12,228 bases of DNA from a virus. Of the stretch, positions 2-10,763 are shown one piece after another. The translations under genes and the position numbers were made by a program. The stretch lies in UHGV virus genome UHGV-0278805; one strand, written 5' to 3'. The notes beneath the pieces were generated by a model. That model had not been told where the DNA came from, made no database searches, and was given only the letters and a program-made list of their open reading frames with translations. Within the stretch, counting starts at the first letter, position 1. The number at the start of each line of letters is the position of its first letter.

Positions 2-499
2 TTCGACATGGTAACCAGCGCACCTGAAAAATTATCCGGACAGGCTGCTGACAAGATGCAGGCTGGCGTGATTCTGCTGGACTTTATGCGCCGGGAGTTA
101 AATCTGTCTAACTCTTCAGTGCTTGGAGCCTGTCAGAAACTCCAGGAGGCTGTTGGCTTACCGAATCTGGCACCGCGCTATGCCATTGATGCTCCTGCTG
201 ACGCGCCTGATGGCTCAAGCCGCCCCACGCTGTCACTGAGTGCACTGCTGAAGCAGTATGGTATCCGCCTGACAGCTAATCAGGCATATCACCAGATGGT
301 GAAGCTGGGGATCGTCGAGCAGCGCGAACGATACAGCCGTACCGCGATTAACAACATCAAAAAATTCTGGTCGCTGACGGCGAAAGGCTGCATGTTCGGC
401 AAGAACATCACCAGTCCCGCAAATCCGCGCGAGACGCAGCCGCATTTCTTCGAATCCCGATTCCCTGAGCTGTTAAAGCTACTCGATACCGTTCATTGA
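2..499 (+). CDS. Phage early-region protein, 5'-truncated by the window edge (possibly Roi/antirepressor-like C-terminal domain)
   Basis: Reading frame is open from position 2 with no upstream stop, so the true N-terminus lies outside the window; first in-window ATG at 8; stop TGA at 497-499. Position directly upstream of the DUF968-Q pair matches the lambdoid nin/roi region. Product assignment is a weak recollection, not a recognised motif. Confidence 0.35.
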   Translation, partial: FDMVTSAPEKLSGQAADKMQAGVILLDFMRRELNLSNSSVLGACQKLQEAVGLPNLAPRYAIDAPADAPDGSSRPTLSLSALLKQYGIRLTANQAYHQMVKLGIVEQRERYSRTAINNIKKFWSLTAKGCMFGKNITSPANPRETQPHFFESRFPELLKLLDTVH

Positions 500-500
500 G

Positions 501-1496
501 GTGACCGTGAGAGCACTACTGACGCCTGAAATTGCCCCGCGTATGGGGATCGTATTGTTCAGGCCAGGTTCAGAGCTGATGCCCTTGTTTATGCAGGGGC
601 GTGTCCTGCTGGAGCCAGAGCCGGAACGTTATTCATCTTTCGCCAGTGGTGCCGTTCCGGCGGCATCACAACCGCTGGCGGATGATCCTGCCGTTCGGGC
701 CGTGTTCCGCAATGAGGCAGTGATCCGTCGTGCTGGTGGAGTGGAATGTCTTGAAAGCTGGTTACTTCGTGAAAAAGGCTGCCAATGGCCTCATTCCGAC
801 TGGCACAGCGAGAACATGACCACAATGCGACACGCGCCGGGCGCAATCCGTCTGTGCTGGCACTGCGATAACCAGCTGCGCGATCAGTTCACGGAACGGC
901 TGGAATCAATGGCAACGGATAACTGTGCCCGCTGGGTGTTATCTGTTGTGCGCCGTGATCTCGGTTTTGATGATAGTCACGTTGTAACAATGCCGGAACT
1001 GTGCTGGTGGCTGGTTCGTAATGACCTGGCTGATGCCTTACCGGAAAGTGCAGCCCGTAAGGCACTGAGATTACCTAAGCCTGTTGTGCCGTCTGTCACC
1101 CGGGAGAGTGACCTTGTTCCTTCGGTTCCTGCCACCAGCATTATCCAGGATAAAGCGAAAAAGGTGCTGGCGCTGAAAGTGGATCCAGAGTCGCCGGAGT
1201 CTTTTATGTTACGCCCAAAATGTCGCCGCTGGGTTAATGAAAAGTACACGCGCTGGGTTAAGACACAGCCGTGTGCATGTTGTGGAAAGCCTGCTGATGA
1301 TCCCCACCACCTGATAGGCCACGGTCAGGGTGGAATGGGTACAAAAGCGCATGACCTCTTTGTGTTGCCTTTGTGCAGAAAGCATCACGACGAGCTGCAT
1401 GCGGATACCGTGGCATTTGAAGAGAAGTATGGCTCCCAGCTGGAGCTGATATTTCGTTTTATCGATCGTGCGCTGGAAATAGGCGTGCTGGCCTGA
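501..1496 (+). CDS. DUF968/YdfU-like prophage protein with C-terminal HNH-like (His-Me finger) Cys/His cluster
   Basis: 331-aa ORF starting at GTG 501 (alternative in-frame GTG 507 and ATG 543). C-terminal segment CACCGKPADDPHHLIGHGQGGMGTKAHDLFVLPLCRKHHDELH has paired Cys and His-His spacing typical of HNH zinc-finger nucleases. Sits immediately upstream of Q, as YdfU-like genes do in E. coli lambdoid prophages (from memory). Confidence 0.7.
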   Translation: MTVRALLTPEIAPRMGIVLFRPGSELMPLFMQGRVLLEPEPERYSSFASGAVPAASQPLADDPAVRAVFRNEAVIRRAGGVECLESWLLREKGCQWPHSDWHSENMTTMRHAPGAIRLCWHCDNQLRDQFTERLESMATDNCARWVLSVVRRDLGFDDSHVVTMPELCWWLVRNDLADALPESAARKALRLPKPVVPSVTRESDLVPSVPATSIIQDKAKKVLALKVDPESPESFMLRPKCRRWVNEKYTRWVKTQPCACCGKPADDPHHLIGHGQGGMGTKAHDLFVLPLCRKHHDELHADTVAFEEKYGSQLELIFRFIDRALEIGVLA

Positions 1497-1513
1497 TTTT
1501 GTGGAGAAATTTG

Positions 1514-1879
1514 ATGCGTGATATTCAGATCATCCTTGAACGTTGGGGGGCATGGGCAGCTAGTGATAGCTCAGGAGTGGACTATTCGCCTATAGCTGCT
1601 GGGTTTAAGGGACTTCTTCCCTATACCAGTAAGGCACGCCAAGCTTGTTCAGATAATGATGCGCTAATTATTGAAAGTTGCTTGGAGCAACTAAAAAAAA
1701 GAAAACCTTATGAGCATTCTCTACTGGTTGCGCATTATTTGTACGGGTTTTCAAAGCGGAAGATTGCCAAAGTACAAGGAAAGGATGAGAAATTAATCCG
1801 TATAGAAATATTGTTAGCAGAGGGATTCATTGATGGTTGCCTTTCTACTCTCGATATTCATTTAGATATGGAGTTATAA
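1514..1879 (+). CDS. Q: Late-gene antitermination protein Q (phage 21/82-type, QuuD/QuuQ-like)
   Basis: ATG at 1514 preceded by GGAG at 1503-1506; stop TAA 1877-1879. Translation MRDIQIILERWGAWAA...IAAGFKGLL...LSTLDIHLDMEL closely resembles remembered DLP12/Qin Q-like antiterminators. The track start at 1499 is a TTG read-in; the ATG with an RBS is preferred. Confidence 0.8.
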   Translation: MRDIQIILERWGAWAASDSSGVDYSPIAAGFKGLLPYTSKARQACSDNDALIIESCLEQLKKRKPYEHSLLVAHYLYGFSKRKIAKVQGKDEKLIRIEILLAEGFIDGCLSTLDIHLDMEL

Positions 1880-1888
1880 TAAAAATAA

Positions 1889-1913
1889 CCCCGTAAACTT
1901 TATGTTTACGGGG
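1889..1913. terminator. Bidirectional intrinsic terminator between convergent Q and the TIR-like gene
   Basis: Perfect 10-bp stem CCCCGTAAAC (1889-1898) / GTTTACGGGG (1904-1913) with 5-nt loop, flanked by an A-run upstream (AATAAAAATAA) and a T-run downstream (TTATTTCTTTTTTTT), so it reads as a hairpin plus U-tract on either strand. Confidence 0.6.
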
Positions 1914-1918
1914 GAAGG

Positions 1919-2734
1919 TTATTTCTTTTTTTTATTACTTTCAGATAATCGTCGGTTTAATGTGTATTTTATTTGGTTCCTAATCATTTTTTCAGGAATG
2001 TCATATTTGTCTAAGAATGATATTATTTCATCCTCGTCAAGCAATCCATTCTTTATAATTTCATCTATCTGTTTTTGTAGATACCAAACATCCTTCTGTT
2101 CTACAGGAGTTAAATTCATATGGCTATTTATGGAGTTGATAGTAGCATCACGTTCAAGAACTCTAATCCTTTGATTTAATGAACGAGTGTTTTGTAATAT
2201 TTCAGATAAAAGATCTTGTTCAGTACGTGGTTTTACTTCTTCAGTTGGAGGGTATTGATCTAAAGCTCGTTTAAAATTTTTTTCAAATTGCTCCCAGTAT
2301 GTATTAAAAACTTGCTTTAGAATACGGTCATCTAAAGATTTATCGACAAGACAATTGTTTATTGTCCTTACTAATTCCCAAACACTCTCTTTATTTGGCG
2401 TTGTGTGATTGAATTGAGCAAGTGGATCTTTTAAATCTTCTGGTTTTAAGTCAATCAAGAATGTACAAACTTTATTTGTTGAAAGTCCTTTTGCTAGTGC
2501 TCCTGTTTCAAACAAAATCCATGGTTTATTTTTATTTTCTTGTGTCAAACATACAATGCCGACAGATACATCTTTTAATTTATCATTAATTTCAGAGAAC
2601 CATATAGCGCCACGATCAATATCTCTGGTTGAAATCCATGGCTGCGAAGCTTGGATAACACACTTCAGCCAGTCGCTAATAAGTTCTGCAACAGCTTGAC
2701 TTCTTTGCCCAGACCAACTTATGAACACTTTCAT
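1919..2734 (-). CDS. TIR-like domain protein with uncharacterised C-terminal helical/charged domain (candidate anti-phage defence or abortive-infection effector)
   Basis: Minus-strand ORF; preferred start is the ATG at 2734-2732 (MKVFISWSG...), preceded by GGAG 6 nt upstream on the coding strand; the track start at 2758 is a TTG. Stop TAA (plus-strand TTA 1919-1921). N-terminal ~120 aa carry TIR-like hallmarks: beta-A strand VFISWSG, then GIVCLTQEN and PWILFETGAL with a glutamate at the position of the catalytic Glu in NAD-cleaving TIR domains. C-terminal ~150 aa is K/E/D-rich with no motif I recognise. Gene is strongly AT-rich relative to its neighbours. Confidence 0.7.
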   Translation of the reverse strand: MKVFISWSGQRSQAVAELISDWLKCVIQASQPWISTRDIDRGAIWFSEINDKLKDVSVGIVCLTQENKNKPWILFETGALAKGLSTNKVCTFLIDLKPEDLKDPLAQFNHTTPNKESVWELVRTINNCLVDKSLDDRILKQVFNTYWEQFEKNFKRALDQYPPTEEVKPRTEQDLLSEILQNTRSLNQRIRVLERDATINSINSHMNLTPVEQKDVWYLQKQIDEIIKNGLLDEDEIISFLDKYDIPEKMIRNQIKYTLNRRLSESNKKKK

Positions 2735-2759
2735 TATGTACTCCATGTAATCACTCAAA

Positions 2760-2857
2760 AGGGACTGAAATTTACATTAAAAATTAAATAAAATCACTCA
2801 CGCGGTCCGCAGAAACCATTGTAATCTGTTATGAGTGGTTACTTCGCCACACAACTT
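2760..2857. promoter_or_regulatory. AT-rich intergenic region, candidate divergent promoter region (TIR-like gene leftward; possible phage late promoter pR'/qut rightward)
   Basis: About 100 bp of AT-rich DNA between the 5' end of the minus-strand TIR-like gene and a + strand terminator. A possible + strand -10 TAAAAT at 2789-2794 with a weak -35 CTGAAA at 2765-2770. Promoter hexamers are weak matches and are not experimentally anchored. Confidence 0.3.
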
Positions 2858-2884
2858 AAACCCGCCGTCGAGCGGGTTTTTTTG
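2858..2884 (+). terminator. Intrinsic terminator (candidate tR'-like terminator of a short late leader transcript)
   Basis: AAACCCGC (2858-2865) / GCGGGTTT (2872-2879) stem with 6-nt loop, followed by TTTTTGT; a classic GC stem plus U-tract on the + strand. Confidence 0.65.
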
Positions 2885-2981
2885 TACCTGTAAACCTGGT
2901 GCAGTACGGTAAACACGCTGGTGGTCGTGAATACTGACTTTTTATCTTGCTGGCTTTTTAGACAAGAGTTATTGGTATGTC

Positions 2982-3200
2982 ATGTTAACCAGAAGGAAAA
3001 AAGACATGCTAAAACAGCAAGATATGACAGAAACGGCGAAAGTTGTTTTTAATGAATTAAGCATCGAACCGGCAACAGTCGGGGAGATTGCACAAAACAC
3101 ATATCTTTCACGCGAACGCTGTCAGTTAATACTGACCCAGTTGGTTATGGCGGGGCTGGCAGATTACCAGTTCGGCTGTTACAGACGCCTTCAGCAATGA
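2982..3200 (+). CDS. Small helix-turn-helix-like protein of unknown function (possible regulator accompanying the methyltransferase)
   Basis: 72-aa ORF; alternative start ATG 3006 (MLKQQDMTETAK...) lies 9 nt after GAAGGA. Segment TVGEIAQNTYLSRERCQLILTQLVMAGL has the look of a recognition helix / winged-helix region. No strong family recognition. Confidence 0.45.
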   Translation: MLTRRKKDMLKQQDMTETAKVVFNELSIEPATVGEIAQNTYLSRERCQLILTQLVMAGLADYQFGCYRRLQQ

Positions 3201-3349
3201 AGGACTTTTAATTTGTGAAAATGGGCGGCTGGTGGGTGTTGGTAGCACCTGCCAGCCATTCGCTCATGCTTACTGGTCACAAGCGAACCACGGCCCACTG
3301 CTTTAGCGCAAAAGCAGAGTGAGCCTACCAGAGTTACGCTTACTGATCC

Positions 3350-4402
3350 ATGAAAAATACTGTAAAAATAAACAGTGTTGATTTAATCAACGCTGATTGC
3401 CTGCATTTTATTCAGTCCCTGCCTGATGATTCCATTGACCTGATTGTTACCGATCCGCCGTACTTCAAGGTGAAACCCAACGGCTGGGACAATCAGTGGA
3501 AAGGGGACGAAGATTACCTTAAGTGGCTGGACCACTGTCTGGCCCAGTTCTGGCGGGTGTTAAAACCTGCCGGAAGCCTTTACCTGTTCTGTGGGCATCG
3601 CTTGGCATCTGATATTGAGATCATGATGCGTGAACGTTTCAACGTGCTTAACCATATCATCTGGGCGAAGCCGTCCGGACGTTGGAATGGGTGTAATAAA
3701 GAAAGTCTGCGCGCATATTTTCCTGCCACAGAGCGCGTTCTGTTTGCTGAACATTACCAGGGGCCATATCGCGGCAAAAGTGACGGCTATGCGGCAAAAG
3801 AAAGGGAACTCAAACAGCACATAATGGCACCGCTGATATCGTATTTCAGGGATGCTCGTGCCGAACTGGGTATAACGGCAAAACAAATTGCCGAAGCCAC
3901 AGGTAAGAAAAATATGGTTTCCCACTGGTTTGGTGCCAGTCAGTGGCAGTTGCCGAATGAGGCTGACTATCGGAAGTTACAGGCACTGTTTTCCCGTATA
4001 GCGGCAGAGAAGTTTCAGGAACAACAACTGGAACAACCACACCACCAGCTGGTGGCATCTTATGATTCACTGAATCGCAAATATTCTGAATTGCTGGATG
4101 AGTTTAAATCTCTCCGGCGCTATTTCTCCGTATCAGTCTCCGTGCCTTATACCGATGTCTGGATGCATAAACCCGTTCAGTTCTACCCGGGTAAACATCC
4201 GTGTGAGAAACCTGCGGATATGCTCCGGCAAATAATCAATGCCAGTAGTCGACCTGGTGATCTGGTTGCTGATTTTTTTATGGGATCCGGTTCCACAATA
4301 AAAGCAGCAATGGCGCTGGGGCGTCGGGCCTTAGGTGTTGAGCTTGAGTCAGAGCGGTTTAACCAGACAGTGAAAGAGATAAACGAGCTGGTGGGGAAAT
4401 AA
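3350..4402 (+). CDS. Orphan DNA methyltransferase, beta-class N6-adenine/N4-cytosine type (YhdJ/CcrM-like architecture)
   Basis: 350-aa ORF. Motif IV DLIVTDPPY near the N-terminus and SAM-binding motif I DFFMGSGST near the C-terminus (beta-class order); HPCEKP segment parallels HPTQKP of remembered YhdJ-type enzymes. No adjacent restriction endonuclease candidate is present. Weak Shine-Dalgarno upstream of ATG 3350. Confidence 0.85.
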   Translation: MKNTVKINSVDLINADCLHFIQSLPDDSIDLIVTDPPYFKVKPNGWDNQWKGDEDYLKWLDHCLAQFWRVLKPAGSLYLFCGHRLASDIEIMMRERFNVLNHIIWAKPSGRWNGCNKESLRAYFPATERVLFAEHYQGPYRGKSDGYAAKERELKQHIMAPLISYFRDARAELGITAKQIAEATGKKNMVSHWFGASQWQLPNEADYRKLQALFSRIAAEKFQEQQLEQPHHQLVASYDSLNRKYSELLDEFKSLRRYFSVSVSVPYTDVWMHKPVQFYPGKHPCEKPADMLRQIINASSRPGDLVADFFMGSGSTIKAAMALGRRALGVELESERFNQTVKEINELVGK

Positions 4403-4408
4403 TCTGGT

Positions 4409-4433
4409 GGCCACGTAGGTGGCCTTTTTATTT
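4409..4433 (+). terminator. Intrinsic terminator downstream of the methyltransferase
   Basis: GGCCAC (4409-4414) / GTGGCC (4419-4424) stem with 4-nt loop GTAG, followed by TTTTTATTT, beginning 7 nt after the MTase stop codon. Confidence 0.5.
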
Positions 4434-4468
4434 CCATTACACAGCACCCGCATCTGCGAGGTGGGGTT

Positions 4469-4684
4469 ATGAAATCCATGGATAAGTTAACAACGGGTGT
4501 CGCCTATGGCACCTCAGCAGGTAGTGCCGGGTACTGGTTTTTACAGTTGCTCGATAAAGTCACGCCCTCACAGTGGGCGGCAATAGGTGTGCTGGGTAGT
4601 CTGGTATTTGGCTTGCTGACGTATCTGACAAACCTTTATTTCAAGATTAAAGAAGATAAGCGTAAGGCTGCGAGAGGTGAATAA
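4469..4684 (+). CDS. S: Pinholin/antiholin, phage 21 S21-like, with dual-start motif
   Basis: Translation [71 protein letters not shown] closely matches remembered phage 21 S. Two in-frame ATGs at 4469 and 4478 (Met1-Lys-Ser-Met4) correspond to the antiholin (71 aa) and holin (68 aa) starts. Two hydrophobic segments. Confidence 0.85.
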
Positions 4685-5181
4685 TGTCGCCATCATTACG
4701 CAAGGCTGTTGCTGCTGCTATTGGTGGTGGGGCTGTTGCCATAGCGTCTGTGCTCATCACTGGTCCGAGTGGTGACGATGGCCTGGAAGGTGTCAGCTAC
4801 ATACCATACAAAGATATCGTTGGCGTATGGACTGTATGTCACGGACACACCGGAAAAGACATCATGCTAGGTAAAACGTATACCGAAGCAGAATGCAAAG
4901 CCCTCCTGAATAAAGACCTTGCCACGGTCGCCAGACAAATTAACCCGTACATCAAAGTCGATATACCGGAAACAACGCGCGGCGCTCTTTACTCGTTCGT
5001 CTACAACGTGGGTGCTGGCAATTTCAGAACATCGACGCTTCTTCGCAAAATAAACCAGGGCGATATCAAAGGCGCATGTGACCAGCTACGTCGCTGGACA
5101 TACGCTGGCGGTAAGCAATGGAAAGGCCTGATGACTCGTCGTGAGATTGAGCGTGAAGTCTGTTTGTGGGGGCAACAATGA
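4684..5181 (+). CDS. R: SAR (signal-anchor-release) endolysin, lysozyme family, phage 21 R21-like
   Basis: ATG 4684 overlaps the holin stop (TAATG). N-terminal Gly/Ala-rich weakly hydrophobic segment [18 protein letters not shown] is typical of a SAR domain, followed by a lysozyme-like body ([22 protein letters not shown]...); near-identical to remembered R21. Confidence 0.85.
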
Positions 5182-5645
5182 GCAGAGTAACCGCGATTAT
5201 CTCCGCTCTGGTTATCTGCATCATCGTCTGCCTGTCGTGGGCGGTCAATCATTACCGTGATAACGCCATCGCCTACAAAGAACAGCGTGATAAAAAAGTC
5301 AGTGAGCTGAAGCAGGCGACCGCCACCATCGCTGACATGCAGCAGCGTCAGCGTGATGTTGCTGCGATCGATGCAAAATACACGAAGGAGTTAGCCGATG
5401 CGAAAACTGAAAATGAAACTCTGCGCGCTGATGTTGCCGCTGGTCGTAAGCGCCTGCGGGTCAATGCCAGTTGCTCCGCAGCCGTGCGTGAAGCCACCGG
5501 ACCCACCAGCATGGATAATGCAACCAGCCCCCGACTGGCAGACACCGCTGAACGGGATTATTTCACCCTCAGAGAACGGTTGATGACGATGCAGAAGCAA
5601 CTGGAAGGGGCGCAGGAATATATCCGCACCCAGCGCATTAAGTAG
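5178..5645 (+). CDS. Rz: Rz i-spanin (inner-membrane spanin)
   Basis: ATG 5178 overlaps the endolysin stop (ATGA). Translation [30 protein letters not shown]... has an N-terminal TM segment and a coiled-coil-like periplasmic domain, and is highly similar to remembered lambda Rz. The track start 5166 is an upstream read-in. Confidence 0.85.
5398..5583 (+). CDS. Rz1: Rz1 o-spanin (outer-membrane lipoprotein), nested in the +1 frame inside Rz
   Basis: ATG 5398 preceded by AAGGAG at 5384-5389; lipobox LVVSAC with Cys at residue 20; proline-rich mature part [32 protein letters not shown] matching remembered lambda Rz1. Entirely embedded within the Rz reading frame. Confidence 0.8.
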
Positions 5646-5666: not shown

Positions 5667-6029
5667 GTGGTTTTTACTGAGCGCGGTGTACACGGTGGAA
5701 CATATGGCGGGAAGTTTGTTGCTTATGATTATGCAGCATGGCTAAACCCCGGATTTAAATATGCAGCCTATAAAGTCCTGGATGACTACTTCACCGGAGA
5801 ACTTCAGCATCGCAACAGCTTAAGTGCGCAGCTCAATATGAAGTGTCATGAGTTTGATCAGAAAAAAGATATGGCGAGCTTCTGTGGACAAGGGCTGGCG
5901 GCATGGCGCTATACGAAGCCAGTGTTGGTCGCTGAGATTAACTCCCTGGCTAACCAGCTGCAGATAACGATCCCCGGGCTGTCCGGTATTTGCCGGTATG
6001 AAATTACCGGAAGGCGCGGTCGTTACTGA
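5667..6029 (+). CDS. Hypothetical protein with KilA-N-like segment; possibly a 5'-truncated remnant
   Basis: 120-aa ORF starting at GTG with no convincing RBS (nearest GGAG is about 16 nt upstream). Segment GTYGGKFVAYDYAAWLNPGFKYAAYKVLDDYF resembles the C-terminal half of the KilA-N consensus (GTWVHP.LA..FA.WLSP.F..W); the N-terminal half of the domain is absent. May be a gene fragment. Confidence 0.3.
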   Translation: MVFTERGVHGGTYGGKFVAYDYAAWLNPGFKYAAYKVLDDYFTGELQHRNSLSAQLNMKCHEFDQKKDMASFCGQGLAAWRYTKPVLVAEINSLANQLQITIPGLSGICRYEITGRRGRY

Positions 6030-6289
6030 GTAACAGCAGGCATTACAGCAGCCCTTCACTGAGGGGCTGCGATAATGTGAGGAATAAAAAACCGGCAGGG
6101 GAAATCCATTGAAGATTTGCCGGTGGCAAAAGATGGCCATGCTTTTAACCTTAGTAGCAGAGTTACGGAGTTCAACAACGACCGTCGCCGTTATCTTGCT
6201 GAAAGGCGTTTCAATGATTTTCATCAATTTATTCATCAGCAATGGTGATAATCACTCTCATTTTGGCGGGTCCTTCCGGTGGGGTGGCC

Positions 6290-6420
6290 TGCCACGGGGC
6301 GGGAGCGTCGCGGAAAAAGGCTAGTTTTTGAAATTTCATTCGTCATCACCACTAATGTAATGCATTGATATTACATTAGTTTTATTTTTATGGTGTCGAT
6401 TTTGATTGTTTTTTGTTCAT
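6290..6420. other. Candidate cos site (cosN-like GC-rich element plus AT-rich cosB-like region) upstream of the terminase genes
   Basis: CACGGGGCGGGAGCGTCGCGG at 6293-6313 resembles the remembered lambda cosN context ACGGGGCGGCGACCTCGCGG, differing in the second half of the 12-nt core. It lies about 186 bp upstream of the terminase small-subunit start, similar to the lambda cosN-to-Nu1 distance. Followed by AT-rich DNA containing an 11-bp inverted repeat. Confidence 0.4.
6351..6380. repeat. Perfect 11-bp inverted repeat ACTAATGTAAT / ATTACATTAGT with 8-bp spacer, within the putative cosB region
   Basis: Read directly: ACTAATGTAAT (6351-6361), spacer GCATTGAT, ATTACATTAGT (6370-6380); the second arm is the exact reverse complement of the first. 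Confidence 0.6.
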
Positions 6421-6482
6421 CACTAACACCGTTTGCCTAAAGTTGTTCGCAAGATGCATGTTTAAAACATTCTGGAGCGAGT

Positions 6483-6977
6483 ATGGATCGAGAGTTAAAA
6501 AATCTGACGCTGAATATCAGTCAACTGGCGGCACTGTCAGGTGTACATCGCCAGACTGCTGCGGCAAGGCTGCAAAATCTACCCGTTGCAGGGGGGCATG
6601 AAAGCAACCTCAAGCTTTATCGGGTGGTTGATATTGTGTCGGCATTTCTGGCATTACCACCGCCGGTTGCAGAAGGCGAAATGGACGCGCATGAGCGCAA
6701 AGCCTGGTATCAGTCTGAACGTGAGCGTCTTAAGTTCGAACAGGAAACGGCGCAACTCATTCCGGCCAGTGATGTCAGACGGGAGTTTGCCATCTGGGCA
6801 AAAGCGGTCGTGCAGGTGCTGGAGACATTACCGGATATTCTGGAACGTGACTGCGGTCTGCAGCCTGCCGCTGTGAGCCGTGTTCAGTCCATTATTGATG
6901 ATCTGCGCGATCAGATAGCCCTGCGGGTGACCGAAGCAGGTGCGGATGATGAGGAGGAATTACAGCAGGAGGAGTAA
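6483..6977 (+). CDS. Terminase small subunit (Nu1/gp1-like, DNA-recognition subunit)
   Basis: ATG 6483 preceded by GGAGCGAG; N-terminal HTH-like segment NISQLAALSGVHRQTAAARL; acidic C-terminus; stop overlaps the large-subunit start (TAATG at 6975-6979); lies immediately downstream of the cos-like region. Confidence 0.75.
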   Translation: MDRELKNLTLNISQLAALSGVHRQTAAARLQNLPVAGGHESNLKLYRVVDIVSAFLALPPPVAEGEMDAHERKAWYQSERERLKFEQETAQLIPASDVRREFAIWAKAVVQVLETLPDILERDCGLQPAAVSRVQSIIDDLRDQIALRVTEAGADDEEELQQEE

Positions 6978-9079
6978 TGCTGAATCAGGAAACCGCAAAG
7001 GCAGCACGAACCGATTCAGGTTATATCCTTCGCGCACCGAGACGAATGCAGGTTGCTGATGCCGTTGCTCAGTATATGCGGGTGCCCATGGGGGCCGGGA
7101 ACTCAGTCCCGTGGGATCCGCTGGTGGCACCGTATGTTATTGAGCCGATGAACTGCCTGGCCTCGCGTGAATACGACGCAGTGATATTTGTTGGCCCGGC
7201 ACGAACCGGCAAGACTATCGGCCTGATTGACGGCTGGGTGATTTACAACGTGATTTGCGATCCTGCGGATATGCTGATCATTCAGATGACGGAGGAAAAA
7301 GCCCGCGAACACTCCAAAAAACGACTTGCCAGAACGTTTCGCGTCAGCCCGGAAGTGGTCAGTCGCCTGAGTCCGAACAAAAATGACAACAACGTTTATG
7401 ACAGAACATTCCTTGCTGGCAACTACCTGAAAATCGGCTGGCCGTCAGTCAATATCATGTCCTCATCAGATTATAAATGCGTGGCGCTGACGGATTATGA
7501 CCGTTTTCCGGAAGATATTGATGGCGAGGGGGATGCCTTCTCTCTTGCCTCAAAACGTACCACCACATTTATGTCCAGTGGTATGACGCTGGTGGAGAGT
7601 TCCCCGGGCAGGGATGTGAAGGATGTGAAATGGCGACGGACTTCACCACATGAGGCTCCACCAACCACGGGGATACTGTCGCTCTATAACCGTGGTGATC
7701 GCCGTCGCTGGTACTGGCCCTGTCCACACTGTGGTGAGTATTTTCAGCCCTGCGGCGATGTGGTTGCTGGTTTCCGTGATATTGCCGATCCCGTGCTGGC
7801 AAGTGAGGCGGCTTATATTCAGTGTCCTTCCTGTTCAGGACGGATTATGCCTGAACAAAAACGTGAGCTGAACGGACGTGGGGTCTGGTTGCGGGATGGT
7901 GAATCCATCAATGCGGATGGCAGTCGTTATGGTGATCCCCGACGCTCACGTATTGCGTCATTCTGGATGGAGGGTCCGGCAGCTGCTTACCAGACACTCT
8001 CGCAACTCGTTTACAAACTGCTTACTGCAGAACAGGAATACGAGACAACCGGAAGTGAAGAAACACTCAAGACGGTTATCAATACCGACTGGGGATTACC
8101 TTATCTTCCCCGTGCCAGCATGGAGCAACGAAAAAGTGAACTGCTTGAGCAGCGGGCAGAGCCAGTTCCTTCCCGCAGTGTGCCGGATGGCGTTAATTTC
8201 CTTGTGGCGACAGTGGATGTGCAGGCGGGACGTCATCGCCGTTTTGTGGTTCAGGTAACGGGCTATGGCAGCCGTGGCGAACGCTGGATTATTGATCGTT
8301 ACAACATCACGCAGTCATTGCGCGGTGACAGCGACGGGGAGAGCCAGCGAATTGATCCGGCCAGCTATCCGGAAGACTGGGATGTCCTGCTGACGGATGT
8401 TTTTCATAAAAGCTGGCCGCTGGCCTCCGATCCTTCTCAACAAATGCGACTGATGGCAATGGCGGTGGACTCCGGCGGTGAAGACGGGGTCACTGATAAT
8501 GCCTATAAATTCTGGCGTCGTTGCCGTCGTGATGGCCTTGGTAAACGTATTTACCTGTTTAAGGGCGACAGCATCCGGCGCGCAAAACTGATCACCCGTA
8601 CATTCCCTGATAACACCGGACGAACGGGCCGACGGGCGCAGGCCGCAGGTGATGTGCCGCTCTGGCTTCTTCAGACGGATGCCCTGAAAGACCGGGTGAA
8701 TAACGCGTTATGGCGTGACTCGCCAGGTCCCGGCTATGTGCATTTCCCTGACTGGCTGGGGAGCTGGTTTTACGACGAACTGACGTATGAAGAGCGGAGC
8801 AGTGACGGGAAATGGAGTAAGCCGGGTCGCGGTGCCAACGAAGCTTTTGACCTGATGGTGTATGCCGAGGCTCTGGTCATTCTGCATGGATACGAAAAGA
8901 TCCGCTGGCCGGATGCACCGGAGTGGGCGAGCCGGGAAACCTGGCTGGAGTGTGTCCCGGACAGTACCGAACCGTCACCCTCACCGGAACCGGTATCCAC
9001 GCCTGTTAAAAAACAAAAACGGAAGAAAACAGTAACTGACGATGTTAACCCCTGGCTGACTTCCGGAGGATGGTTATGA
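6977..9079 (+). CDS. Terminase large subunit (lambda gpA family)
   Basis: 700-aa ORF; Walker A-like GPARTGKT within AVIFVGPARTGKTIGLIDGW near the N-terminus; size and position after the small subunit are typical; translationally coupled start. Confidence 0.9.
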   Translation: MLNQETAKAARTDSGYILRAPRRMQVADAVAQYMRVPMGAGNSVPWDPLVAPYVIEPMNCLASREYDAVIFVGPARTGKTIGLIDGWVIYNVICDPADMLIIQMTEEKAREHSKKRLARTFRVSPEVVSRLSPNKNDNNVYDRTFLAGNYLKIGWPSVNIMSSSDYKCVALTDYDRFPEDIDGEGDAFSLASKRTTTFMSSGMTLVESSPGRDVKDVKWRRTSPHEAPPTTGILSLYNRGDRRRWYWPCPHCGEYFQPCGDVVAGFRDIADPVLASEAAYIQCPSCSGRIMPEQKRELNGRGVWLRDGESINADGSRYGDPRRSRIASFWMEGPAAAYQTLSQLVYKLLTAEQEYETTGSEETLKTVINTDWGLPYLPRASMEQRKSELLEQRAEPVPSRSVPDGVNFLVATVDVQAGRHRRFVVQVTGYGSRGERWIIDRYNITQSLRGDSDGESQRIDPASYPEDWDVLLTDVFHKSWPLASDPSQQMRLMAMAVDSGGEDGVTDNAYKFWRRCRRDGLGKRIYLFKGDSIRRAKLITRTFPDNTGRTGRRAQAAGDVPLWLLQTDALKDRVNNALWRDSPGPGYVHFPDWLGSWFYDELTYEERSSDGKWSKPGRGANEAFDLMVYAEALVILHGYEKIRWPDAPEWASRETWLECVPDSTEPSPSPEPVSTPVKKQKRKKTVTDDVNPWLTSGGWL

Positions 9080-9288
9080 ATCAGAATGATATTGAAGCCA
9101 TGATTCAGCGTTATACGGAAGCTGAAATGGCGGTGCTGGACGGAAAATCCGTCACTTTTAATGGTCAGCAGATGACCATGGAAAACTTATCTGAGATCCG
9201 GCAGGGGCGGCAGGAGTGGGAGCGCCGCCTTGCGGCTCTGATTACACGACGACGTGGGCATCCCGGGTACCGGCTGGCGAGGTTCTGA
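9070..9288 (+). CDS. W: Head-tail joining / head completion protein, gpW-like
   Basis: About 70-aa ORF between terminase and portal. C-terminus ...ITRRRGHPGYRLARF resembles the remembered lambda gpW C-terminus (RRRG motif). Alternative start ATG 9076 lies 6 nt after GGAGGA. Stop TGA 9286-9288 overlaps the portal ATG. Confidence 0.6.
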   Translation: MVMNQNDIEAMIQRYTEAEMAVLDGKSVTFNGQQMTMENLSEIRQGRQEWERRLAALITRRRGHPGYRLARF

Positions 9289-10763
9289 TGGCAATTCTTG
9301 ATGATGTGATTGGCGTTTTTTCACCAGGATGGAAAGCGGCAAGGCTGCGTTCCCGTGCGGTGATCCAGGCTTATGAGGCCGTAAAAACGACGCGGACACA
9401 CAAAGCCCGACGGGAGAACCGAACTGCCGACCAGTTAAGCCAGTACGGGGCCGTGTCGTTACGTGAGCAGGCCCGTTACCTTGATAACAACCACGATCTG
9501 GTCATTGGTGTATTTGACAAGCTGGAAGAACGGGTGGTGGGGAAAAACGGGATTATTGTCGAGCCACATCCGGTATTACGCAATGGGGCCATTGCCCGTG
9601 ATCTGGCAGCGGAGATACGTACCCGATGGAGTGAATGGTCTGTCAGTCCGGAGGTCACCGGGCAGTTTACCCGTCCGATGCTGGAACGTCTGATGCTGCG
9701 TACCTGGCTGCGCGATGGTGAGGTGTTTGCCCAGATGGTTTCCGGGCGCATAAACAGCCTGACGCCTTCTGCCGGTGTTCATTTCTGGCTGGAGGCGCTC
9801 GAGCCGGACTTTATTCCCATGACCAGTGATGAGAGCAACAGGCTGAATCAGGGCGTGTTTGTTGATGACTGGGGGCGTCCCGAAAAATATCTGGTGTATA
9901 AAAGTCGTCCTGTATCCGGACGGCAGATGGAAACCAAAGAAGTGGATGCAGAGCGAATGCTGCATCTTAAATTTGTTCGCCGTCTGCACCAGATGCGCGG
10001 GACGTCTTTATTGTCCGGTGTGCTGATCCGCCTCAGCGCCCTGAAAGAGTATGAAGATTCTGAGCTGACTGCAGCAAGGGTCGCCGCTGCTCTGGGGATG
10101 TACATCCGCAAAGGCGACGGACAGAGCTATGAAACGGATGGTAATGACAGCAAGGAGAATGAACGCGAGCTTACCATTCAGCCAGGCATTATTTACGACG
10201 ATCTGAAACCCGGCGAAGAAATCGGAATGGTGAAGTCGGATCGCCCAAATCCTAACCTTGAAACTTTTCGTAATGCTCAGTTGCGTGCCGTGGCGGCGGG
10301 CAGTCGTCTGAGTTTTTCCAGTACAGCGCGCAACTATAACGGCACTTACAGCGCCCAGCGTCAGGAGCTGGTTGAATCCACTGATGGCTACCTGATCCTG
10401 CAGGACTGGTTTATTGGTGCCGTCACCCGCCCGATGTATCGTGCCTGGCTGAAACAGGCTGTGGCATCCGGTGTTATCAGGCTACCCCGCGATCTTGACC
10501 GTTCTTCACTGTATACCGCGGTGTATTCCGGACCGGTGATGCCGTGGATTGACCCTGTTAAGGAGGCTGAGGCCTGGAAAATCCAGATTCGTGGTGGAGC
10601 GGCGACAGAATCAGACTGGGTACGTGCAGGTGGTCGTAATCCGGATGATGTCAAACGTCGGCGCAAGGCCGAAATTGATGAAAACCGCAAGCTGGACCTG
10701 GTATTTGATACCGATCCGGCCAGTGATAAAGGAGGCAGCAGTGCCGCAACGAAACGACAGTAG
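9288..10763 (+). CDS. Portal protein (lambda gpB-like)
   Basis: ATG 9288 overlaps the gpW stop (TGATG); about 491 aa from this start; canonical position between gpW and the prohead protease. The track start 9216 is a read-in from within the gpW region. Confidence 0.85.
   Translation: MAILDDVIGVFSPGWKAARLRSRAVIQAYEAVKTTRTHKARRENRTADQLSQYGAVSLREQARYLDNNHDLVIGVFDKLEERVVGKNGIIVEPHPVLRNGAIARDLAAEIRTRWSEWSVSPEVTGQFTRPMLERLMLRTWLRDGEVFAQMVSGRINSLTPSAGVHFWLEALEPDFIPMTSDESNRLNQGVFVDDWGRPEKYLVYKSRPVSGRQMETKEVDAERMLHLKFVRRLHQMRGTSLLSGVLIRLSALKEYEDSELTAARVAAALGMYIRKGDGQSYETDGNDSKENERELTIQPGIIYDDLKPGEEIGMVKSDRPNPNLETFRNAQLRAVAAGSRLSFSSTARNYNGTYSAQRQELVESTDGYLILQDWFIGAVTRPMYRAWLKQAVASGVIRLPRDLDRSSLYTAVYSGPVMPWIDPVKEAEAWKIQIRGGAATESDWVRAGGRNPDDVKRRRKAEIDENRKLDLVFDTDPASDKGGSSAATKRQ

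What the first reader, a model, noticed from the sequence alone, without database searches (positions are those of the whole stretch)
1880..2981. AT-rich, terminator-bracketed moron island splitting Q from the late operon
A hand count of 2041-2100 gives about 30% G+C versus about 52% for 7021-7080 in the terminase gene. The island is transcribed opposite to all flanking phage genes and is bounded by a bidirectional terminator at 1889-1913 and a + strand terminator at 2858-2884. This is the signature of a horizontally acquired, independently expressed cargo gene sitting in the Q-to-lysis moron hotspot (the locus where Stx toxin genes sit in Stx phages).
Basis: seen in the sequence. Interest (0 to 1): 0.6.

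Follow-up and report, generated by a model that had tools for sequence, protein, structure and literature searches.

The report
Prophage cargo gene: standalone TIR defence candidate
The AT-rich island is real: it is a self-contained, swappable cargo gene in a lambda-like prophage that encodes a lone TIR-domain protein, most likely an anti-phage "suicide" NAD-destroying enzyme, and it is an ordinary kind of feature whose cargo and insertion slot are worth testing.

Summary
Bases 2041-2100 are 30.0% G+C against 51.7% for 7021-7080. The minus-strand gene 1919-2734 is 32% G+C, the lowest stretch in the window. Both hairpin terminators exist.

The boundaries need correcting. Comparison with related prophages puts the variable cargo at about 1883-2785.

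The terminator at 2858-2884 does not bound the island. It belongs to a conserved backbone block (2799-2884). In an "empty-site" Stx2 phage this block abuts the Q gene. It most likely holds the Q-dependent late promoter region and its terminator tR'.

The cargo lies between Q and that block, antisense, with its own conserved promoter-like motif and terminator. Stx genes occupy a different slot, downstream of tR'.

The same slot holds other defence-type cargos elsewhere: a KAP NTPase, a NACHT-phosphoesterase, DUF262+HEPN, unknown cassettes, and nmpC in DLP12.

The cargo is a 271-aa TIR protein:
- Glu76 is invariant and the C-terminus is hypervariable.
- The closest solved fold is SpbK.
- It is 38% identical to the TIR of the validated P2_AC1 defence system, but lacks its membrane partners.
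- No neighbouring gene is conserved across 80 loci.

Best reading: a single-gene abortive-infection NADase. This is inferred, not shown.

The parts
1499..1879 (+). Q antiterminator gene (126 aa, Q21/Q933W family); left flank of the cargo slot
   Evidence: Pfam PF06530, E = 9.6e-49. Matches the solved Q21 protein 6P18, E = 1.1e-4. 45% identical to DLP12 QuuD.
1883..2785 (.). True extent of the variable cargo island (about 0.9 kb)
   Evidence: blastn break-points. The KAP-cargo phage L002 is homologous up to 1882 and again from 2790. The empty-site Stx2 phage L097 resumes at 2779. Others resume at 2782-2800.
1889..1913 (-). Intrinsic terminator of the TIR gene (10-bp stem, then UUAUUUUUAU on the minus strand); weak at best on the + strand
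   Evidence: The stem CCCCGTAA...TTACGGGG is conserved behind the TIR gene in the Klebsiella prophage L005 and in phage mEp390.
1919..2734 (-). TIR-domain protein gene (271 aa plus stop; ATG at 2734)
2741..2744 (-). Shine-Dalgarno GGAG, 6 nt upstream of the ATG
   Evidence: Read from the sequence.
2769..2797 (-). Candidate sigma-70 promoter of the TIR gene: -35 GTGATT (2797-2792), a 17-nt spacer ending in TG, -10 TAAATT (2774-2769)
   Evidence: The same architecture, (G/A)TGATT-17-TA(A/T/C)A(T/G)T, is seen at the same spacing upstream of the TIR gene in the window, L005 and mEp390. It was not called by the stricter consensus scan. It is inferred, not mapped.
2799..2857 (+). Conserved backbone block specific to Q21-family phages; presumed late promoter, Q-loading and leader region (pR' region)
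   Evidence: Conserved in 10 phages whatever the cargo (A5). It abuts the Q stop codon in L097. It is present downstream of nmpC in DLP12. It is absent from SfV, whose lambda-type Q (PF03589) has a lambda-like promoter plus AACGAT there instead. The transcription start is not resolved.
2858..2884 (+). tR'-like intrinsic terminator of the late-promoter leader; backbone, not an island boundary
   Evidence: 97.8% identical to the SfV segment that carries the annotated terminator about 110 nt after its Q gene. The canonical Q cassette is Q gene, pR', pause element, terminator, late genes.
2982..4402 (+). Context only: 72-aa winged-helix-like gene plus N6/N4 DNA methylase downstream of tR'. This leads into the slot where tRNAs and stx lie in Stx2 phages.

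Best explanation
Bases ~1883-2785 are a self-contained accessory transcription unit (a moron). It consists of a promoter-like motif, a ribosome-binding site, a 271-aa TIR protein gene and an intrinsic terminator. It sits antisense in a recombinational cargo slot between the Q antiterminator gene and Q's target, the conserved pR'-type block ending in the tR'-like terminator 2858-2884.

Because the unit lies outside and opposite to the Q-dependent late transcript, it can be expressed from the repressed prophage.

The protein is most likely a single-component abortive-infection defence. A conserved N-terminal TIR NADase module (residues 1-195, catalytic Glu76) is held inactive. The hypervariable C-terminal helical domain (about 196-271) would then recognise a component of a superinfecting phage. 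TIR domains would cluster, NAD+ would be destroyed, and the infected cell would stop supporting phage growth.

Shown here: the anatomy, the mobility, the slot polymorphism, the TIR fold, the invariant Glu, the lack of partner genes, and the homology to a validated anti-phage TIR.

Inferred: expression in lysogens, NADase activity, the trigger, and the abortive outcome.

The confidence of 0.62 is for the whole statement. The structural part (a mobile moron in a Q|pR' cargo slot) is about 0.9. The defence-NADase mechanism is about 0.6.
For: Island and slot:
- Composition and break-points at 1882 and 2779-2800.
- An empty site in Stx2 phage L097, where the conserved block abuts Q.
- Six other cargos at the same place. 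All are antisense except one + strand C5 methylase accompanying the DUF262+HEPN pair. They are: KAP NTPase (PADLOC PDC-S20, also PifA-like), metallophosphoesterase-NACHT (PDC-S60), DUF262/GmrSD_N (NsnA, PD-T4-2_A) + HEPN + C5 methylase, two unknown 2-gene cassettes, and nmpC in DLP12.
- The island is in 25 of 5,426 E. coli genomes, all at least 99.6% identical and annotated intact.

Own signals:
- Terminator.
- Promoter-like motif and terminator stem conserved in three phages about 71-74% identical in DNA.

Protein:
- TIR fold with pLDDT 90.3.
- Foldseek top hits are the SPARTA TIR-APAZ, plant TIRs and SpbK.
- Glu76 is invariant in 54 diverse homologues. A weak HMMER alignment places it opposite the Glu of the plant TIR 'DEL' motif.
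- Pairwise identity is 0.87 for residues 1-130, 0.68 for 131-195 and 0.26 for 196-271.
- No transmembrane segment.

Defence link:
- 38% identity over residues 1-179 to the TIR of the P2_AC1 2TM+1TM+TIR system. That system was shown to protect against lambda, LF82_P8 and P2 (PMC9122126).
- The PADLOC TIR-TM model corresponds to that AC1 protein (2.7e-118).

Standalone status:
- No recurrent neighbour gene in 80 loci from many phyla.
- Occurs as V. cholerae superintegron cassettes, next to AbiJ in Halomonas, and in the same Q slot in Klebsiella prophages and phage mEp390.

Precedent: SpbK is a one-protein TIR NADase activated when a phage portal clusters its TIR domains (PMC12847820).
Against: - There is no experimental evidence for this protein or for any standalone member of its family.
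- PADLOC knows its relative only as part of a three-gene system, whose authors proposed that the TIR makes a signal for the membrane partners. The TIR here might likewise need a partner.
- The promoter is only a modest consensus match (7 of 12) and was missed by the scan.
- An AT-rich gene may be silenced in E. coli.
- The catalytic-Glu assignment rests on a weak sequence alignment (E = 0.73) plus conservation.
- The C-terminal domain has no recognisable relative, so its sensor role is inferred from variability alone.
- The position of pR' within the conserved block is not mapped.
Confidence: 0.62

Rival explanations
1. The TIR protein is a signal generator, not an effector. On infection it makes an ADPR-derived messenger that activates an effector encoded elsewhere in the host or prophage, as in Thoeris or as proposed for the P2_AC1 system.
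For: Its closest characterised sequence relative is the TIR of the P2_AC1 system, where the authors proposed signalling to the adjacent membrane proteins. A few of the 80 homologue loci have an upstream membrane or SLATT-like ORF (2 + 2 loci).
Against: No partner gene lies in the island; the intergenic gaps are 39 and about 50 nt. No gene family recurs next to the homologues in 80 loci; the next best family is in 5 loci. The gene travels as a single integron cassette. An unlinked effector would rarely be co-transferred.
Confidence: 0.12
2. It is a virulence factor of the TcpC/BtpA type: a bacterial TIR protein that interferes with Toll-like-receptor signalling in an animal host. This would parallel other lysogenic-conversion genes.
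For: Several database names read 'toll-Interleukin receptor'. Prophage morons near the lysis genes often encode virulence factors such as stx, bor and iss.
Against: Homologues are spread through marine, soil and sediment bacteria and one archaeal MAG. They occur in integron cassettes and next to Abi genes. There is no hydrophobic or signal segment. The TIR is N-terminal, and Glu76, aligned with the plant TIR catalytic Glu, is strictly conserved. The slot-mates are defence-type genes.
Confidence: 0.05
3. It serves the phage's own lytic cycle or counter-defence, for example by degrading host immune nucleotides or remodelling NAD metabolism. In that case it is a quasi-core function.
For: A 71-74% identical Q-terminator-TIR unit is kept together in E. 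coli and Klebsiella prophages and in mEp390, so the association is old. PHROGs groups it with phage proteins of unknown function (phrog_13899).
Against: The gene is antisense to all early and late transcription and is insulated by its own terminator. It is absent from most phages with the same backbone. It is replaced by unrelated cargo. Most family members are not in phages.
Confidence: 0.06
4. It is a silent or decaying passenger with no current function in this host.
For: The gene is strongly AT-rich (GC3 0.23), the kind of DNA that xenogeneic silencers target in enterobacteria (established knowledge). Only a weak promoter match is present.
Against: The reading frame is intact and at least 99.6% identical in 25 genomes. 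Residues 1-195 are under very strong conservation across phyla. The promoter-like motif and terminator are conserved in diverged phages.
Confidence: 0.07

Closest known systems
TIR component of the 2TM + 1TM + TIR system of phage P2_AC1 (Rousset et al. 2022, PMC9122126; PADLOC model 'TIR-TM' PDLC03016)
   Same: Homologous TIR module: 38% identity over residues 1-179 and PADLOC E = 1.2e-57. Both are prophage-borne cargo in a variable hotspot. The AC1 system is experimentally anti-phage.
   Different: AC1 has two adjacent membrane-protein genes and a 315-aa TIR protein with a different C-terminal part. Here there is no partner gene, and the protein matches only positions 1-246 of the 293-position model.
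SpbK of Bacillus subtilis ICEBs1 (single-protein TIR NADase abortive-infection system)
   Different: Only 19% identity over the TIR. The non-TIR parts are unrelated and the domain order differs. SpbK is carried by a conjugative element, not a prophage. The trigger here is unknown.
Classical lambdoid morons in the Q-to-lysis interval: nmpC of DLP12 (lc of PA-2) and stx of Stx phages
   Same: nmpC occupies exactly this slot: antisense, between a Q21-family Q gene (QuuD) and the same conserved block. Like those genes, the cargo is compositionally foreign and dispensable.
   Different: stx lies in another slot, downstream of tR' on the + strand, and depends on Q read-through. The cargo here is a defence-type enzyme, not a porin or toxin.
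Thoeris ThsB and SPARTA TIR-APAZ
   Same: TIR fold with a conserved catalytic Glu. These proteins appear among the top fold matches.
   Different: Those TIRs work with obligatory partners (ThsA; short Argonaute). No such partner is present here or recurs near homologues.

Membership tests
Moron (independent accessory transcription unit in a phage genome) | Gene inserted between two conserved phage functions and absent from close relatives | tested here: met
   The empty site in L097, other cargos at the same break-points, and presence in 25 of 5,426 genomes.
Moron (independent accessory transcription unit in a phage genome) | Own promoter and own terminator | tested here: inconclusive
   The terminator is clear. 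The promoter is only a conserved motif matching 7 of 12 consensus positions. No transcription start has been mapped.
Moron (independent accessory transcription unit in a phage genome) | Composition different from the surrounding genome | tested here: met
   G+C of 0.324 against 0.50; GC3 of 0.23.
Moron (independent accessory transcription unit in a phage genome) | Expressed from the repressed prophage | not testable with these tools
   Needs RNA-seq or a reporter in a lysogen.
Catalytic (NADase) TIR domain | TIR (flavodoxin-like) fold | tested here: met
Catalytic (NADase) TIR domain | Conserved catalytic glutamate | tested here: met
   E76 is invariant in 30 close and 54 diverse homologues. 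It aligns with the Glu of the plant TIR W-x-x-D-E-L motif, but that alignment is weak (E = 0.73).
Catalytic (NADase) TIR domain | NAD+ cleavage activity that depends on self-association | not testable with these tools
   Needs a biochemical assay.
Rst 2TM-1TM-TIR system (P2_AC1 type) | TIR protein homologous to the PADLOC TIR-TM model | tested here: met
   E = 1.2e-57, covering model positions 1-246 of 293. The AC1 protein itself scores 2.7e-118.
Rst 2TM-1TM-TIR system (P2_AC1 type) | Adjacent 2TM and 1TM membrane-protein genes | tested here: not met
   There is no room or ORF for them in 1880-2981. No recurrent neighbour was found in 80 loci. The locus is therefore not a member of that system.
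Thoeris | ThsA-type effector (SIR2/SLOG or Macro-TM) next to the TIR gene | tested here: not met
   All neighbours are phage genes. No conserved partner was found.
Stx-type late-operon cargo (Q-dependent) | Located downstream of pR'-tR' on the late strand | tested here: not met
   The cargo lies upstream of the conserved block and terminator, and is antisense. stx2AB lies downstream of that block in L096 and L097.
Q21-family antitermination cassette (context) | A PF06530 Q gene followed by a promoter-proximal element and terminator that vary with Q type | tested here: met
   Q assignment. The block is conserved with PF06530 Q genes that are only 45% identical. In SfV, which has a PF03589 Q, the block is replaced by a lambda-like promoter plus AACGAT. 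The transcription start is not mapped.

The most novel reading that the evidence does not exclude
The 271-aa protein may represent a very large, uncatalogued family of single-gene TIR abortive-infection systems. The family has about 11,000 clusters at 50% identity and is spread across bacterial phyla, integron cassettes and prophages. Its hypervariable about 75-residue C-terminal domain would be the phage sensor.

Separately, the interval between a Q21-type Q gene and its pR' block may be a previously undescribed defence hotspot of enterobacterial lambdoid prophages. It could be mined for new systems; two unknown 2-gene cassettes were already seen there.

A further possibility concerns self-immunity. 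Read-through from the early operon across the weak + strand side of the 1889-1913 hairpin, or competition between the overlapping divergent promoters at 2765-2797, could switch the gene off during the prophage's own lytic growth.
Probability: 0.4. Interest if true: 0.6.

Novelty: new member of a known kind. Interest (0 to 1): 0.4.

Why it matters
Prophage-borne defence genes shape which phages can infect a strain, which matters for phage therapy and for the spread of toxin phages. This locus offers three testable things:
1. A compact one-gene TIR protein with a clear conserved-enzyme and variable-sensor layout. It is related to a validated system but lacks that system's partners. It could show how a lone TIR senses infection.
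2. A precisely bounded cargo slot between Q and its late promoter, flanked by conserved sequence. The flanks can serve as anchors to harvest unknown defence cassettes from thousands of enterobacterial prophages.
3. A correction of a common shorthand. "The Q-S moron region" is at least two slots with opposite regulatory logic: Q-independent and antisense upstream of pR', and Q-dependent downstream of tR', where stx lies.

Tried and rejected
- NCBIfam gave no hit for the TIR protein, Q, or the 72-aa protein.
- Rfam found nothing credible in 1400-4500; the best matches had E = 0.5-0.6. There are no tRNA genes in the window.
- A sequence search of the PDB with the C-terminal 141 residues found nothing below E = 0.3.
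- Literature searches for 'TIR-TM', for TIR integron cassettes, and for a lambdoid Q/lysis defence hotspot found no paper describing this protein or slot. The NAR 2026 paper on P2/P4 hotspots mentions neither.
- I tried to place the pR' start site by eye and from the Q21 structural papers. The promoter and QBE sequences are only in figures. The conserved block has several -10-like hexamers (TAAAAT 2789-2794, TAATCT 2822-2827, TATGAG 2830-2835) and no convincing -35, so I left the start unresolved.
- A DLP12 literature search did not give a mapped essD promoter.
- I considered whether pR' might lie left of the island, as the 258-nt StxS leader of Sakai phages might suggest. I judged this unlikely for two reasons. 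The conserved Q-type-specific block lies to the right of the slot in all ten phages. The block abuts Q only when the slot is empty.
- I considered membership of the AC1 three-gene system, Thoeris, and TcpC-like virulence factors. All three were rejected (see the membership tests).
Full report
**1. Setting**

The window is the late-regulatory and packaging region of a lambdoid enterobacterial prophage, with these genes on the + strand:

| Coordinates | Feature |
|---|---|
| 501-1496 | DUF968/HNH gene |
| 1499-1879 | Q antiterminator, 126 aa, Q21/Q933W family (Pfam PF06530, E = 9.6e-49) |
| 2982-3200 | 72-aa winged-helix-like gene |
| 3350-4402 | N6/N4 DNA methylase |
| 4469-4684 | P21-type holin |
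| 4684-5181 | lysozyme |
| 5166-5645 | Rz |
| 6483-6977 | small terminase |
| 6977-9079 | large terminase |
| 9216-10763 | portal |

Q also matches the solved Q21 protein (E = 1.1e-4). The only credible minus-strand gene is 1919-2734.

**2. The observation**

- The gene 1919-2734 is 0.324 G+C with GC3 of 0.23. Neighbouring genes have GC3 of 0.47-0.61, except Q itself at 0.35.
- The lowest 819-bp window of the whole sequence starts at 1781 (0.308), about 3.2 sd below the mean.

Both hairpins are real.

- 1889-1913 has a 10-bp stem of -17.8 kcal/mol.
- 2858-2884 has an 8-bp G+C-rich stem followed by seven U.
- The region 1400-3500 holds 5 terminator-like sites against 1.6 +/- 1.2 in shuffles.

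The first hairpin has a proper U-tract only on the minus strand, directly after the stop codon of the minus-strand gene. It is therefore that gene's terminator, and at best a weak + strand one.

**3. Where the island really begins and ends**

blastn against related prophages gives sharp break-points.

- A phage with a different cargo (L002) is homologous up to 1882 and again from 2790.
- Four others resume at 2782-2800.
- A Stx2 phage with nothing in the slot (L097) resumes at 2779, which in that phage is 8 nt before the Q stop codon.

The variable segment is therefore about 1883-2785, not 1880-2981.

**4. The conserved block to the right of the island**

Bases ~2799-2884 form a block that is conserved in ten phages whatever they carry (A5). 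In the E. coli-type phages it reads TAACGCG(G)TNCGCA...TANNNTGTTAAGAGTGGTTACTTCGCCACACANCTTAAAC plus the terminator hairpin; the Klebsiella phage and mEp390 diverge at several positions.

- The ten include the K-12 cryptic prophage DLP12, where the block lies downstream of the antisense porin gene nmpC.
- The Q genes next to this block are all PF06530, although some are only 45% identical to each other.
- Phage SfV shares the terminator and everything downstream at 97-98% identity. It has a lambda-type Q (PF03589). In place of the block it has a lambda-like TTGCAT-17-TAAGAT promoter followed by AACGAT. From my own knowledge, AACGAT matches the pause element of lambda pR'.

The canonical Q cassette is [quoted passage not shown] (Yin et al.). 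In Stx phages pR' fires constitutively and stops at tR' during lysogeny (PMC7547250).

I conclude that 2799-2857 is the Q21-type late-promoter and Q-loading region, and that 2858-2884 is tR'. I could not fix the transcription start (see "tried and rejected").

**5.

The cargo sits between Q and Q's target, antisense, outside the Q-dependent transcript.

Stx genes are in a different slot. In L096 and L097 they follow the same block, terminator, small gene, methylase and three tRNAs on the + strand. L096 has cargo in both slots, so the two are distinct.

The "moron hotspot" idea is right. The equation with the stx locus and the role assigned to the second terminator are not.

**6. Polymorphism of the cargo**

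The island occurs in 25 of 5,426 complete E. coli genomes, always at least 99.6% identical and annotated intact. About 1,496 genomes match some part of the 1499-3400 query; in the rows sampled these matches are mostly the right-hand backbone.

The same slot holds these other cargos:

| Locus | Cargo in the slot | Database match |
|---|---|---|
| L002 | KAP-family NTPase | PADLOC candidate PDC-S20; also PifA-like |
| L013 | 1,047-aa metallophosphoesterase-NACHT protein | PDC-S60 |
| L014 | DUF262/GmrSD_N protein + HEPN nuclease + C5 methylase | NsnA / PD-T4-2_A-like |
| L015 | unknown two-gene cassette | no Pfam or PADLOC hit |
| L096 | unknown two-gene cassette | no Pfam or PADLOC hit |
| DLP12 | nmpC | porin |

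The cargo genes are antisense; the one exception is the C5 methylase in L014, which is on the + strand. This is the profile of a defence-gene hotspot.

**7. The cargo as a transcription unit**

On the coding strand, the sequence upstream of the ATG (2734) carries a GGAG ribosome-binding site (2744-2741). It also carries GTGATT, a 17-nt spacer ending in TG, and TAAATT (2797-2769).

- The Klebsiella prophage L005 and phage mEp390 are only 71-74% identical in DNA.
- Both have the same arrangement at the same spacing: GTGATT-17-TATATT and ATGATT-17-TACAGT.
- The terminator stem CCCCGTAA...TTACGGGG is likewise conserved.

The promoter is a modest consensus match and is not mapped.

The Q-terminator-TIR unit is evidently old. 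It is collinear and co-diverged between E. coli and Klebsiella phages.

**8. The protein**

The 271-aa product is a TIR protein.

- Sequence-family matches: Pfam TIR_2 is above its cut-off. PHROGs places it in a family of unknown function.
- Structure: AlphaFold2 gives pLDDT 90.3. The model has a TIR fold at residues 1-130, helices at 136-160, a long helix at 172-204, and a small helical bundle at 213-270.
- Catalytic residue: Glu76 is invariant in 54 diverse homologues. A weak alignment places it opposite the catalytic Glu of plant TIRs.
- Membrane segments: none.

Conservation is strikingly lopsided. Mean pairwise identity among 30 close homologues is 0.87 for residues 1-130, 0.68 for 131-195 and 0.26 for 196-271. 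This is the pattern expected of a conserved enzyme fused to a fast-evolving recognition module.

**9. Relatives and contexts**

The family is large: 11,271 clusters at 50% identity with E <= 1e-3, and 3,401 with E <= 1e-30. It spans Proteobacteria, Bacteroidota, Bacillota, Planctomycetota, Verrucomicrobiota, Acidobacteriota and a Methanoperedens MAG.

- In 80 diverse loci, no neighbouring gene family recurs. The next most frequent family is present in 5 loci.
- In V. cholerae the gene is a superintegron cassette, present twice.
- In Halomonas it lies next to AbiJ.
- In Klebsiella prophages and the isolated phage mEp390 it occupies the same Q slot.
- Homologues are AT-richer than their flanks in 73 of 75 loci.

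The only characterised sequence relative is the TIR of the 2TM+1TM+TIR system of phage P2_AC1, at 38% identity over residues 1-179.

- That system protects against lambda, LF82_P8 and P2 (PMC9122126).
- The PADLOC model "TIR-TM", which the window protein hits at 1.2e-57, corresponds to that AC1 protein (2.7e-118).
- The two membrane partners are absent here, so the locus is not a member of that system.

**10. Mechanism proposed**

By analogy with SpbK, I propose the following. SpbK is a one-protein TIR NADase whose activity is switched on when a phage portal clusters its TIR domains (PMC12847820).

1. The protein is made in the lysogen.
2. Its variable C-terminal domain binds a component of an incoming phage.
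3. TIR domains assemble.
4. NAD+ is consumed.
5. The infection aborts.

All five steps are inferred. The rival that the TIR makes a signal for an unlinked effector is weakened by the absence of any conserved partner. The virulence-factor and phage-benefit readings fit the distribution and the orientation poorly.

**11. Verdict**

This is a real and well-bounded moron of a familiar kind. It carries an uncharacterised standalone relative of a validated anti-phage TIR, in a cargo slot that is itself a useful hunting ground.

It would not surprise a specialist, but it is cleanly testable. Interest is 0.4.

Noticed in passing
window 2859-2880: The window is a mosaic. Bases 1-2880 match an E. coli 268.2 prophage at 99.4%, and 2859-4463 match phage SfV at 96.8%. 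The 22-nt overlap is the terminator stem-loop itself, which looks like the recombination joint between modules.
   Followed up: partly
window 2982-4402: A 72-aa winged-helix-like gene (phrog_331; weak TrmB/DprA_WH hits) and an N6/N4 DNA methylase lie immediately downstream of the tR'-like terminator. In Stx2 phages L096 and L097 the same pair precedes the tRNAs and stx2AB, so this pair leads into the true stx slot.
   Followed up: partly
L015 1990-3451 and L096 1897-3460: Two different antisense two-gene cassettes (182+308 aa and 179+343 aa) occupy the same Q|pR' slot. They have no Pfam or PADLOC hit and are candidate unknown defence systems.
   Followed up: partly
L004 6001-6810 and 8103-8912: A Vibrio cholerae chromosome-2 superintegron carries two cassettes of this TIR family within 2 kb, among acetyltransferase, DUF645 and NTP_transf_6 cassettes.
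   Followed up: no
window 6200-6480: A second AT-rich dip (G+C 0.36-0.42) lies between the ORF11CD3/Rha-like gene (5667-6029) and the small terminase gene. It contains only short ORFs. It could be a cos or regulatory region, or a decayed moron.
   Followed up: no
window 2765-2797: The candidate TIR promoter on the minus strand (-35 2797-2792, -10 2774-2769) overlaps the only + strand promoter-like site called by the scan (CTGAAA 2765-2770, TAAAAT 2789-2794). If both are real they are overlapping divergent promoters that could compete.
   Followed up: partly
window 2802-2810: A perfect 9-bp palindrome, GCGGTCCGC, lies inside the conserved Q21-type block. It reads CGCGGNCCGCA in four phages and CGCGTACGCA in others. 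Its function is unknown; it could be a protein-binding site or a small RNA hairpin.
   Followed up: no
L016-L095 (inside the TIR gene, opposite strand): An approximately 79-aa antisense ORF inside the TIR gene recurs in 30 of 80 loci. This is most likely a by-product of the extreme conservation of the sense sequence rather than a gene.
   Followed up: no
window 8-499 and 5667-6029: Two separate ORFs both hit the same PHROG (phrog_129, transcriptional regulator, KilA-N/Rha-like). One lies upstream of DUF968 and one after the lysis genes. This suggests duplicated or fragmented regulator modules.
   Followed up: no
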